From the human T2T-CHM13v2.0 reference genome, Homo sapiens, in assembly GCF_009914755.1 (NCBI RefSeq), contig NC_060925.1: a stretch of DNA of 64,000 bases. The stretch is one strand, 5' to 3'. The position numbers and the translations under genes are program-made. Below, piece after piece: positions 28,801-31,025 of this stretch. Each line of letters opens with the position of its first letter. Position 1 is the first letter of the stretch. The notes beneath the pieces were generated by a model. The model saw only the letters and a program-made list of their open reading frames with translations, searched no databases and was not told where the DNA came from.

Positions 28801-31025
28801 CCTCAGCCTCCCGAGTAGCTGGGATTACAGGCACGCGCCACCATGCTCAGCTAATTTTTGTAATTTTAGTAGAGACAGGGTTTCTCCATGTTGGTCAGGC
28901 TGGTCTCGAACGCCTGACCTCAGTTGATCCGCCCGCCTTGGCCTCCCAAAGTGCTGGGATTACAGGCGTGAGCCACCATGCCTGGCCATAATTTTTGTAT
29001 TTTTAGTAGAGATGGGGTTTCAACATATTGGCCAGGCTGGTCTTGAACTCCTGACCTCAGTTGATCCACCCACCTTGGCCTCCCAAAGTGCTGGGATTAC
29101 AGGCGTGAGCTACTTCACCTGGCTTTCTTTTTCTTTTTCTTTTTTTTAAGAGCTCTCGCTGTGTTGCTCAGGCTGGAGTGCAGTGGCTATTCACAGGTGC
29201 AATCATAGTGCACTGCTCCTTTGAAGTACTTGTTAATGTTTGCTATTCTTTAATCATGATGAAAGAGATGGAGGGAGGTGGAAAGTCAGTAGATTAGATA
29301 TAAATGAACTGACCTTATTCTCCTCTTTTAGCTCCTCTTCATAAATTGCTTTGTAGACATAACAAATGTTATATAAAAATAGTTGGAGGGGCTGGGCGTG
29401 GTGGCTCATGCCTGTAATCCCAGCACTTTGGGACACCGATGGGGGCAGATTACAAGGTCAGGAGTTCGAGACCAGCCTGACCAACCTGGTGAAAGCCTAT
29501 CTCTATGAAAAATACAAAATTTAGCTGGAGGTGGTGGCACGTGTCTGTAATCCCAGCCACTCAGGAGGCTGAGGCAGGAGAATTGCTTGAACCTGGGAGG
29601 CAGAGGTTGCGGTGAGCCGAGATCATGCCATTGCACTCCAGCCTGAATGACGGCAAGACGCTGTCTCCAAAAAAGAAACAAAAATGGTTGGAGGAAGCAA
29701 ACACCCATGATTTTAAAGCCCTCTCCCAAGCAAATCATGTGCATATGCAATTCTTGTTTCAACATAATGTAAAACACTTCATAGTGAGAGACAAAATGAA
29801 TGCACGATTCTCTAGCAAGGCCAGTATTCTTCAATCAGCTTTGAGAACCTACATTTCTTATTTTGGTAAACTACTGTCATGTTTCCTCAATTGTGTTAAT
29901 TGATCTACCAGGAAGAAGACAAAAATAGAGTTTCTAGTAGCTTTATTAAGAAACCCTGTTAAGATTGGAAGGCTGATGGAACCTGGGTCTGGACCAGATC
30001 CGTGAGATCAGAGTGGTTTAACAGCTTTTATGGTCTGTTTTTGCTGATTCTTACTTTTCTGTTTGTGCCTAGAAGTCTGGAACGTTTTTTCTTAGAGTTC
30101 CAGAATTGTGACTGAAGTGTACCCAGAGACACAAAGAAATACAGAAGTCCAGAATGATCAAATGAGATCACTACCCAATGAAATGATAGGCCGAGGAGCC
30201 AGAAATTGTCCTACTACCTGCTTTCCAGGTCCAGATTCCACGAGAGCCTTCTGGGCTCCCACCAGAGACCCTCAGTGAAGACTCTGTTGAAGACTTTAAG
30301 ACCATGCTAGAAAGCCTCCCGGCAGAGGTTCAGGAAGTTCTGCTATGAGGATGCAGCTGGCCCCAGGGATGTCCTCAGGCATCTCTAGGACCTTGCTGGA
30401 CGGTGGTGGCTGAGACCTGATATCCACACAAAGGAGCAGACTGTGGAAATGCTGGTGCAGGAGCAATTCCAGGCTGTCCTGCCCGAGGAGCTCAGAGCTC
30501 AAGCACAGAGATGTCATCCTGGAATCAGAATCACTGGCTAAGTCTTGCTGCTTGCTTCTTGCTCAGCCTGCATATGAGAAGTCAACCAAGCATTCTCTTG
30601 GATGCAAGATCCAACTGCACCCATGGGAAATCTGAACTTCCACTTTCTTTGAGCTTGTCTTTGGTTGTAATAAGAATCCATCAAAACCCATGTCTGGATC
30701 TCTCTTTGGCTGAGGCAGCTTTATTTCCTACAGAGTTTCTCTGTCCTCTTGTTAGGACAATCAGCCTGCTGCTTTGGGCTTTTCCAAGAGCCTATTTTTC
30801 ATCTGCTGGATGCCTCTTTTTTTTTTTTTTTTTGCACTTTGTGACATGCTTTAATATATATATTTTTTATGTATCCAAAGAGGTAATCAACTTTAACTTT
30901 CAGAATTCATGAATCTTGGTTTGGTGGCATGAATGAAAGGTTATGTAACCCCACCAGTAACTCATTTGGGGTGCCCTTGAAATATTAAAGTTTGGTCCTC
31001 AATAAATATGTGCTGTGGTGATTAA
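25030..31025 (+). ncRNA. LINC00339: lncRNA LINC00339 (HSPC157); predicted exons 1a ending 25175, 1b ending 25446, 27209-27329, terminal 30073-~31025
   Basis: Lies between CELA3A and CDC42; CpG promoter; donors gcacg|gtaagg, gcgtag|gtgaac, ttgacg|gtactt; acceptors ttcctcag| and tgcctag|; ATTAAA 30984 and AATAAA 31001. Ends are approximate. Confidence 0.8.
30183..30541 (+). pseudogene. Disabled SCAN-domain coding sequence in the LINC00339 terminal exon
   Basis: Frame from 30314: [74 protein letters not shown], matching the SCAN signature; TAG 30386-30388, upstream frameshifts. Confidence 0.9.

What the first reader, a model, noticed from the sequence alone, without database searches (positions are those of the whole stretch)
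30183..30541. LINC00339's last exon is a fossil SCAN-domain gene: lncRNA born from a dead SCAN-only protein gene
Seen: from 30314 the + strand encodes [69 protein letters not shown]. This aligns along its length with the SCAN consensus (RQRFRxFxY..aaGPrEaLxrLxeLCxxWLRPEihTKEQIlElLVLEQFLxiLPxelqaw...HP). Removing one A in gaaa (30310-30313) joins it to an open upstream frame (30190: AEEPEIVLLPAFQVQIPREPSGLPPETLSEDSVEDFKTMLE). Removing one base near 30186-30190 links that to ATG 30183. Other lesions: TAG 30386 (likely CAG>TAG) and a TGG duplication (30404-30409). Established: SCAN is an oligomerisation domain of ZSCAN factors, typically encoded in the first coding exon after 5' UTR exons. Inference: the CpG/ETS promoter, spliced UTR exons, SCAN exon, early TAA (30539) before the last helix and the poly(A) site fit an in situ SCAND1-like, zinc-finger-less gene that was pseudogenised but stayed transcribed. 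The ORF track misses it.
Basis: partly seen in the sequence, partly recalled or inferred. Interest (0 to 1): 0.85.

Follow-up and report, generated by a model that had tools for sequence, protein, structure and literature searches.

The report
LINC00339 exon: dead SCAND1-like gene
The last exon of the human non-coding RNA LINC00339 carries the broken coding sequence of a small SCAN-domain gene that other placental mammals, lemurs included, still have intact, so this disease-linked lncRNA is the transcribed remains of a lost protein gene.

Summary
Window 30314-30538 scores 79.9 bits against Pfam SCAN (cut-off 27, E 1.3e-22).

Three reading frames of the exon (30105-30188, 30190-30306, 30314-30538) tile a 150-aa protein named "SCAN domain-containing protein 1-like". 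It is predicted intact in 30 named placental species, three of them lemurs.

The Lemur catta protein finds this locus as its best human match (86%). The next best is SCAND1 on chr20 at 63%, so human has no intact copy.

Lesions:
- Start codon ATG is now ATT (30105-30107).
- One extra base within 30186-30190.
- A net 20-nt loss at 30307-30313.
- TAG at 30386.
- Three extra bases near 30401-30409.

These indels account exactly for the length: 453+1-20+3 = 437 nt. The TAA at 30539 is the native stop, shared with all orthologues and with SCAND1.

Amino-acid changes pile up on the human branch: 14-17 against 1-3 for lemur.

The ancestral start lies 78 nt upstream of ATG 30183, and the second frameshift is a 20-nt loss.

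It is a new member of a known kind (lncRNA from a unitary pseudogene). Large-scale synteny was not testable here.

The parts
25307..25446 (+). LINC00339 exon 1 (non-coding 5' exon), in a GC-rich promoter region
   Evidence: Hub annotation NR_109762.1. GT follows the exon. GC is 0.58-0.66 and CpG o/e 0.66-0.72 over 25200-25599.
27209..27329 (+). LINC00339 exon 2 (non-coding 5' exon)
   Evidence: Hub annotation. AG lies before it and GT after it.
29912..29989 (+). Intron stretch just upstream of the coding exon that is conserved in other mammals
   Evidence: The N-end of the bat gene model P0007 (Rhinolophus ferrumequinum) matches the translation of this stretch, 19 of 26 identical, E 2e-11. The first 34 aa of unnamed model P0158 match 29965-30066, score 91 against a shuffled maximum of 41.
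30073..31007 (+). Terminal exon of LINC00339; it holds the whole coding relic plus the 3' UTR
   Evidence: Hub annotation. The AG acceptor at 30071-30072 follows a pyrimidine tract. No A-run follows 31007.
30105..30107 (+). Lost start codon (ATT where orthologues have Met)
   Evidence: Alignment A2 column 27. M1 is invariant in 33 of 33 orthologues. The bases were read.
30105..30188 (+). Coding relic piece 1, 28 codons, frame a
   Evidence: 79% identical to Lemur catta P0157 residues 1-28. One search gives 81% over residues 3-29.
30186..30190 (+). Frameshift 1: one extra base
   Evidence: Frame a ends at the Met-Ile codons and frame b starts at AEEPE. Orthologues read straight through, NEM(M/I)AEEPE.
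30190..30306 (+). Coding relic piece 2, 39 codons, frame b
   Evidence: 73% identical to Lemur P0157 over 41 aligned residues.
30307..30313 (+). Frameshift 2: 7 nt stand where orthologues have 27 nt (net loss of 20 nt)
   Evidence: In alignment A2, nine residues (PQRNPPNPA in lemur) have no human counterpart. Length check: 453+1-20+3 = 437 nt = 30105..30541.
30314..30538 (+). SCAN-domain relic, 75 codons, frame c
   Evidence: Pfam SCAN 79.9 bits. 89% identical to Lemur P0157 and 92% to Microcebus in the tree alignment. 63% identical to SCAND1.
30386..30388 (+). Premature stop TAG
   Evidence: Q stands at this column in 15 of 16 named orthologues of A2. SCAND1 has R.
30398..30412 (+). In-frame extra codon (GRWW where orthologues read GQW)
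   Evidence: One-residue gap in the alignments. The bases were read.
30539..30541 (+). Native stop codon TAA after the RITG tail
   Evidence: All 16 orthologues of A2 and the chr20 SCAND1 ORF end at the same residue.
30736..31000 (+). 3' UTR segment with one old 5'-truncated retrocopy on chr7
   Evidence: 74% identical to C7:132106797-132107053(-), the only other match in the assembly. An A-run and then an Alu follow the chr7 copy exactly where the transcript ends.
30984..30989 (+). ATTAAA poly(A) signal 18 nt before the annotated 3' end

Best explanation
Window 30105-30541 is a unitary pseudogene. It is the human orthologue of a small placental-mammal gene that databases call only 'SCAN domain-containing protein 1-like'; I write SCAND1L as my own shorthand. 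The whole 150-codon reading frame lay in one exon behind spliced 5' UTR exons. The protein had a disordered N-terminal half and a truncated SCAN domain ending in RITG, like its paralogue SCAND1, with no zinc fingers. By analogy with SCAND1 it most likely paired with the SCAN domains of ZSCAN transcription factors. On the human side of the lemur split the gene lost its start codon, took two frameshifts (+1, net -20), a TAG and an extra codon. After that it drifted. The promoter, splice sites and poly(A) site survived, so the locus is still transcribed and is annotated as the lncRNA LINC00339. Shown here: the homology, the lesions, the lack of any other human copy, the intact orthologues, the faster human branch. 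Inferred: the partner-binding role of the lost protein, and that whatever LINC00339 RNA does today is independent of coding.
For: - SCAN HMM match: 79.9 bits, E 1.3e-22.
- Of the 65 hits to the Elephantulus orthologue, 48 cover at least 70% of it. Of those, 31 are named, from 30 species of Afrotheria, Xenarthra, Laurasiatheria and lemurs (orders from my own knowledge), mostly 142-151 aa.
- The three human frames tile Lemur catta P0157 at 79%, 73% and 89% identity.
- The indels +1, -20 and +3 turn 453 nt into exactly the 437 nt of 30105-30541.
- The best human match to P0157 is this locus (86%, E 8.8e-36). The next is SCAND1 at 63%.
- No near-identical DNA lies elsewhere in the assembly.
- Bat and dog gene models carry translated sequence matching the human intron upstream and the 3' UTR downstream of the relic, so homology runs beyond the mRNA-coding part.
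- Tree: SCAND1 plus SCAND1L against 10 human ZSCAN exons has support 100/100. SCAND1 including 7 marsupials has 98/96. The window sits among the lemur rows.
- Relative-rate counts with 7 outgroups: 14-17 human-only changes against 1-3 lemur-only, chi-square 7.1-12.3.
- Among 14 named full-length orthologues the SCAN part averages 85% identity over 91 pairs, which fits constraint where the gene is intact.
- Intact orthologues show the same truncated SCAN match, profile 2/3-70 of 90.
- The Lemur model has residues 1-68 below pLDDT 50 and helices at 75-84, 93-107 and 115-141.
- Two copies of Lemur residues 70-150: the model supports binding but does not show it. Score 0.66, best of 3 controls 0.00; the mark was reached by 21 of 30 proteins solved as pairs of one chain and 0 of 23 solved as single chains. 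The runs agree in at least 97% of contacts and partner pLDDT is 77. SCAN dimers are solved, so the pass may be from memory.
Against: - Large-scale synteny (CELA3-CDC42) of the orthologues was not tested; no mammalian genome other than this one was available.
- On the 74-column SCAN alignment alone, the AU test does not reject placing the window with SCAND1 (p 0.18, lnL difference 11.2). Support for SCAND1L plus window is only 87/63.
- No nucleotide sequences of orthologues were at hand, so no dN/dS was computed.
- Three unnamed database proteins (P0193, P0215, P0015) carry the human-type junctions yet have an open frame. The locus may therefore not be dead in every close relative.
- Transcription rests on the hub's annotation; no expression data were examined.
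- The absence of named anthropoid or rodent proteins (0 of 31 named rows) is not evidence of loss there.
Confidence: 0.87

Rival explanations
1. It is an old processed retrocopy of SCAND1 (chr20) that landed between CELA3A and CDC42 and later acquired 5' exons.
For: SCAND1 is the closest human paralogue and shares the RITG-stop end. Both reading frames are intronless. The AU test on 74 columns does not reject window plus SCAND1 as one clade (p 0.18).
Against: Identity to SCAND1 is 63%, against 86-92% to the lemur SCAND1L proteins. The 41-aa upstream piece has no BLASTP match to SCAND1, yet it matches SCAND1L. DNA similarity to SCAND1 stops at the stop codon and at the start of the SCAN part. 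No A-run follows the exon end. Marsupial SCAND1 falls inside the SCAND1 clade (98/96), so the split is older than placentals.
Confidence: 0.03
2. It is a dead copy (by retroposition or segmental duplication) of a SCAND1L parent gene that once sat elsewhere and was later deleted from the human genome. In that case the LINC00339 locus is not the ancestral site.
For: Large-scale synteny was not tested. The reading frame is intronless, as in a retrocopy. A 5'-truncated retrocopy of this very transcript exists on chr7, which shows the mRNA was retroposed at least once.
Against: No other SCAND1L-like locus exists in the T2T assembly; after this locus the best hit is SCAND1 at 63%. Bat model P0007 and unnamed model P0158 include sequence matching the human intron directly upstream of the exon, and dog model P0014 matches the human 3' UTR. 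There is a proper acceptor site and no A-run or flanking repeats.
Confidence: 0.07
3. The human locus still makes a SCAN-related peptide, for example from an internal ATG or by frameshifting, so it is not purely non-coding.
For: A 30-codon ATG ORF (30449-30541) stays in the SCAN frame. Unnamed relatives have a reopened 118-aa frame.
Against: The start codon is lost, and there are two frameshifts and a TAG. The 30-aa piece would hold only the last helix region. Amino-acid change on the human branch is 5-15 times that of lemur. The longest ATG ORF of the spliced RNA (133 aa, 30511-30912) is off-frame.
Confidence: 0.03

Closest known systems
SCAND1 (human chr20; the 179-aa ORF in L041)
   Same: A SCAN-only protein with no zinc fingers and its whole reading frame in one exon. 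The SCAN domain is truncated and ends at the same residue with the RITG tail. Both share the VEMLVQEQ motif where other SCANs read LELLVLEQ. It groups with the window's family at 100/100 against 10 other human SCAN exons.
   Different: Only 63% identical in the SCAN part. The N-terminal half is unrelated in sequence and about 30 residues longer, rich in Ala and Pro. SCAND1 is intact in human and has marsupial orthologues. The window keeps canonical SCAN residues, such as the EELRA motif, that SCAND1 has changed.
'SCAN domain-containing protein 1-like' gene models of other placental mammals (for example Lemur catta P0157, Enhydra P0154, Trichechus P0152, Elephantulus P0011)
   Same: Same length plan and same three segments, at 73-89% identity to lemur, with the same stop. 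These are the orthologues.
   Different: They are open reading frames; the human locus carries five disabling or length-changing lesions. They are automatic predictions. The only two papers found holding that name are livestock expression studies (listing only).
SCAND2P (chr15), a SCAN-only locus registered both as pseudogene/lncRNA and as mRNA
   Same: A SCAN-domain locus without fingers that is annotated as non-coding RNA in human (PMC10049278, passages read).
   Different: It belongs to a different SCAN lineage; that paper describes it as closer to MZF1. That paper reports protein-coding transcripts from it. No such frame is left at LINC00339.
lncRNAs that are relics of lost protein-coding genes (PMC5577775; PMC10195156)
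   Same: The same kind of event: a conserved coding gene decays while the transcription unit lives on as a lncRNA.
   Different: LINC00339 is not mentioned in the main text of either paper (0 occurrences each).

Membership tests
SCAN domain (Pfam PF02023) | Profile score above the curated cut-off | tested here: met
   79.9 bits against a cut-off of 27, E 1.3e-22; 79.2 bits in the genome scan.
SCAN domain (Pfam PF02023) | Full five-helix domain (profile about 1-89) | tested here: not met
   Only profile positions 3-70 of 90 are covered. The same holds for intact orthologues (2/3-70) and for SCAND1 (1-63), so the truncation is native to this subfamily and not a lesion.
SCAND1 / SCAND1-like subfamily (SCAN-only proteins) | Reading frame ends right after the truncated SCAN domain with the RITG tail; no zinc fingers | tested here: met
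   Window, SCAND1 and 16 of 16 orthologues in A2 stop at the same column.
SCAND1 / SCAND1-like subfamily (SCAN-only proteins) | Groups with SCAND1 and SCAND1L apart from ZSCAN domains in a tree | tested here: met
   Support 100/100 for the joint clade against 10 human ZSCAN exons.
SCAND1L orthogroup (as opposed to SCAND1 proper) | N-terminal half homologous to SCAND1L and not to SCAND1 | tested here: met
   Pieces 1 and 2 are 79% and 73% identical to lemur. There is no BLASTP match to SCAND1.
SCAND1L orthogroup (as opposed to SCAND1 proper) | SCAN part placed with SCAND1L with strong support | tested here: inconclusive
   Support is 87/63. The AU test does not reject the alternative (p 0.18). 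There are only 74 columns.
Unitary pseudogene | Disabling lesions in the frame | tested here: met
   Start lost, +1, net -20, TAG.
Unitary pseudogene | No intact copy of the same gene elsewhere in the genome | tested here: met
   Lemur P0157 against the whole T2T assembly: after this locus the best hit is SCAND1 at 63%.
Unitary pseudogene | Intact orthologues in other species | tested here: met
   31 named rows from 30 species. 33 full-length sequences align with an invariant Met1.
Unitary pseudogene | Same chromosomal neighbourhood as the intact orthologues | not testable with these tools
   Only flank-level homology was shown. No other mammalian genome was held.
Processed pseudogene | Poly(A) tract and target-site duplications at the ends, and a closer parent elsewhere | tested here: not met
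   No A-run follows 31007, and a normal acceptor sits at 30072. No closer parent exists.
lncRNA derived from a lost coding gene | An annotated lncRNA exon holds the relic | tested here: met
   The relic 30105-30541 lies inside exon 30073-31007 of NR_109762.1 (hub annotation; splice signals).
lncRNA derived from a lost coding gene | The RNA is expressed and has a function of its own | not tested
   Only paper listings were seen. No expression data were examined.

The most novel reading that the evidence does not exclude
On the lineage leading to humans, after the split from lemurs, primates lost a SCAN-only regulator that had been conserved across placentals. The surviving transcription unit was then co-opted as LINC00339, whose reported links to CDC42 regulation, bone density and endometriosis would be a new RNA-level or transcription-level role built on a dead gene. 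In some close relatives (unnamed records P0193, P0215) a further 4-nt loss together with an overlapping ATG reopened a 118-aa SCAN frame. That would be a case of partial gene resurrection.
Probability: 0.15. Interest if true: 0.7.

Novelty: new member of a known kind. Interest (0 to 1): 0.5.

Why it matters
LINC00339 is a much-studied lncRNA. 52 held papers mention it together with CDC42 and 1p36.12, in work on endometriosis, bone and cancer (listing only). My searches found no paper linking it to a SCAN gene: LINC00339 with "SCAN domain" gave 0, LINC00339 with "unitary pseudogene" gave 0, and LINC00339 with SCAND1 gave 2 unrelated papers.

Knowing that it is the corpse of a conserved protein gene has practical consequences:
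- It explains why the locus has a promoter, clean splice sites and a poly(A) site.
- It warns that in non-anthropoid mammals such as dog, sheep or lemur the "orthologue" is a protein-coding gene, so functional comparisons across species are not like for like.
- It identifies an uncharacterised SCAND1 paralogue whose loss may have changed the ZSCAN partner network in our lineage.

Tried and rejected
- I thought by eye that the upstream 41 aa resembled the N-end of SCAND1. BLASTP found nothing at E up to 100 and MAFFT did not align the flanks, so I dropped the idea. The piece is homologous to SCAND1L only.
- An AU test meant to exclude a window-plus-SCAND1 clade was not significant (p 0.18). The case against that grouping rests on the N-terminal pieces and on identity levels instead.
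- I looked for the N-terminal extensions of six longer gene models in window 24900-30110, hoping to show conserved 5' exons. Five of six (P0160, P0153, P0167, P0185, P0166) scored no better than shuffles. Only P0158 matched, to 29965-30066.
- A third protein search, with P0193, was meant to put names on the human-like relatives. It gave 54 hits and no named anthropoid.
- No dN/dS, no dating of lesions and no population-variant check was possible: no orthologue DNA, primate genomes or variant data were available.
- I did not run a fold search of the model, because the sequence match to solved SCAN domains was already decisive.
- The supplements of PMC5577775 and PMC10195156 could not be opened. 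They may list this locus.
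Full report
**Observation**

Read with X at the TAG, window 30314-30538 matches Pfam SCAN at E 1.3e-22. 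The score is 79.9 bits against a cut-off of 27, and it covers profile positions 3-70 of 90. The upstream 41 aa have no Pfam match. A six-frame SCAN scan of the whole assembly lists this place among 73 matches, at 79.2 bits with one TAG. Five solved SCAN domains (ZNF174, ZNF24, ZNF42, ZSCAN10, PEG3) match at E 7e-19 to 1e-10.

**Closest human relative**

I searched the assembly with the 75-aa piece. After the window itself, the best match is chr20:37674745-37674960(-) at 64%; the next is 57%. That chr20 locus holds a 179-aa ORF. I take it to be SCAND1 from its position and from the database names of its near-identical relatives.

BLASTP aligns window residues 3-75 to residues 108-179 of that ORF at 63% identity. 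Both end at the same residue with the tail RITG followed by a stop. So TAA 30539 is not an accidental early stop. The DNA similarity between the two loci is confined to the SCAN part and ends at the stop codon. The upstream 41 aa do not match SCAND1. No near-identical DNA copy of the exon exists elsewhere in the assembly.

**Intact orthologues**

A full HMMER pass over 1.84 billion representatives gave 1717 hits at E up to 0.001. Among them are short proteins 76-84% identical to the human piece that end in RITG. I then searched with one of these, Elephantulus P0011, and got 65 hits:

- 48 hits cover at least 70% of the query.
  - 31 of them carry names, from 30 species. Most are called "SCAN domain-containing protein 1-like" and are 142-151 aa long.
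  - By my own knowledge of their orders they span Afrotheria (3), Xenarthra (1), Carnivora (10), Artiodactyla with whales (8), bats (3), Eulipotyphla (2) and lemurs (Lemur catta, Microcebus, Propithecus).
  - None of the 31 named rows is an anthropoid, rodent or lagomorph. That is not proof of absence.
- 17 hits cover less of the query. They include SCAND1 proper, with nine marsupial species among them.

**The human frames tile the orthologue**

In alignment A2 three frames line up with Lemur catta P0157 (150 aa) in order and without overlap:

| Window piece | Codons | Identity to lemur |
|---|---|---|
| 30105-30188 | 28 | 79% |
| 30190-30306 | 39 | 73% over 41 aligned residues |
| 30314-30538 | 75 | 89% |

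The lesions read off the alignment and the bases are:

- ATT at 30105-30107, where 33 of 33 aligned full-length orthologues have Met.
- One extra base within 30186-30190.
- Seven bases at 30307-30313 where the orthologues have 27, a net loss of 20.
- TAG at 30386, where 15 of 16 named orthologues have Gln.
- One extra codon near 30401-30409 (GRWW for GQW).

The arithmetic closes exactly. 150 codons plus the stop make 453 nt, and 453+1-20+3 = 437 nt, which is the length of 30105-30541. ATG 30183 corresponds to an internal Met.

**Is it the same locus or a copy?**

- Lemur P0157 searched against the whole human assembly finds this locus first (86%, E 8.8e-36, plus the two N-terminal pieces). SCAND1 follows at 63%. 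Human has no intact copy and no second relic.
- The bat model P0007 begins with 26 residues that match the translation of human 29912-29989, which is intron in human (73%).
- The unnamed model P0158 matches 29965-30066.
- The frameshifted tail of dog model P0014 matches the human 3' UTR read off-frame (58% of 40 residues).
- The exon has a normal acceptor, and no A-run follows its end.

These results fit an in-place orthologue and speak against a retrocopy. The CELA3-CDC42 neighbourhood of the orthologues could not be checked.

**Tree**

I built a tree from 44 rows:

- the window;
- 21 SCAND1L rows, of which 17 are named and 4 unnamed (the other SCAND1L hits were left out);
- 12 SCAND1 rows, 7 of them marsupial;
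- 10 human ZSCAN exons as outgroup.

It used 74 columns. SCAND1 plus SCAND1L has support 100/100. SCAND1 including the marsupials has 98/96. SCAND1L plus the window has 87/63, and the window sits next to Microcebus. With this rooting the SCAND1/SCAND1L split predates the marsupial-placental split. An AU test does not reject forcing the window into the SCAND1 clade (p 0.18), so the SCAN columns alone are too few. The N-terminal pieces and the identity levels decide the placement.

**Relaxed constraint**

With each of seven outgroups, 14-17 amino-acid changes are unique to human and 1-3 unique to lemur, over 134-142 columns. Chi-square runs from 7.1 to 12.3. Among 14 named full-length orthologues (91 pairs) the SCAN part averages 85% identity and the N-terminal part 64%.

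**What the lost protein was like**

Intact orthologues match SCAN only over profile positions 2/3-70 of 90, and SCAND1 over 1-63. The truncated domain is therefore native to this subfamily.

A model of the lemur protein, built on a 33-sequence alignment, has mean pLDDT 58.6. Residues 1-68 fall below 50, and helices lie at 75-84, 93-107 and 115-141.

I also folded two copies of residues 70-150. The model supports binding; it does not show it. The score is 0.66 against a best of 0.00 for 3 controls. The mark was reached by 21 of 30 proteins solved as pairs of one chain and by 0 of 23 solved as single chains. The runs agree in at least 97% of contacts, and partner pLDDT is 77. SCAN dimers are solved, so this pass may reflect likeness only.

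That SCAND1 pairs with ZSCAN factors such as MZF1 is stated in PMC10049278 (passages read). A like role for SCAND1L is my inference.

**Close relatives with a reopened frame**

Unnamed proteins P0193 (118 aa) and P0215 match human frame b from the ATG at 30178 through the KTMLESL junction (87% of 47 residues). They then run on in the SCAN frame (86% of 74). This implies that they share the +1 and the 20-nt loss and have lost four more bases, which rejoins the frames.

They also differ from the orthologue consensus at three conserved columns:

- GPR has become GSR, at an invariant Pro.
- KEQ has become KKQ, at an invariant Glu.
- VEM has become VGM, at a nearly invariant Glu.

So the open frame may be an accident. 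I infer all of this from protein sequences only.

**Literature**

| Search or paper | Result |
|---|---|
| LINC00339 with "SCAN domain" | 0 papers |
| LINC00339 with "unitary pseudogene" | 0 papers |
| LINC00339 with SCAND1 | 2 papers, on lupus T-cell transcriptomes and a breast-cancer prognostic signature; titles and abstract starts seen only |
| HSPC157 | 13 papers; listing seen only |
| "SCAND1-like" names | 2 livestock expression papers; listing only |
| PMC5577775 and PMC10195156, on lncRNAs from lost genes | 0 mentions of LINC00339 in either main text; supplements closed |

The link may still be in supplements, in databases or in papers outside the held library.

**Verdict**

This is a clean example of a known kind of event, in a well-known lncRNA, and it involves an uncharacterised paralogue of SCAND1.

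Noticed in passing
window 30736-31000; L032:1501-1757 (chr7:132106797-132107053, minus strand): The last ~265 nt of the LINC00339 exon have one other copy in the assembly, at 74% identity. In the chr7 copy an A-run and then an Alu follow exactly where the transcript ends. It looks like an old 5'-truncated retrocopy of this mRNA, which would mean that the same poly(A) site was already in use in the germ line long ago.
   Followed up: partly
window 30511-30912 (+): The longest ATG ORF of the spliced NR_109762.1 is 133 codons. It is off-frame to the SCAN relic and runs through the 3' UTR. It may be what earned the locus its old protein-style name HSPC157 (recalled, not checked).
   Followed up: no
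proteins P0014, P0037, P0017 (P0014 named Canis lupus familiaris; P0037 and P0017 carry no name in my calls): These related models leave the SCAN frame after the EELRAR motif; P0014 runs on into what is 3' UTR in human. Lycaon (143 aa) and Nyctereutes (124 aa) models are listed for the same family. This could be an independent lesion in dogs or an assembly or model error.
   Followed up: no
proteins P0193, P0215, P0015 (unnamed records): These human-like relatives share the human junctions but have an open 76-118-aa SCAN frame, through an extra 4-nt loss and an overlapping ATG equivalent to window 30178. They carry changes at otherwise conserved SCAN residues.
   Followed up: partly
window 30071-30076: There are tandem acceptors (AG at 30071-30072 and at 30074-30075). 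They fit the two annotated exon starts, 30073 and 30076.
   Followed up: no
window 30817-30835: A run of about 17 T lies in the 3' UTR. The chr7 retrocopy has only about 7 at the same place, so the run expanded or contracted after the copy was made.
   Followed up: no
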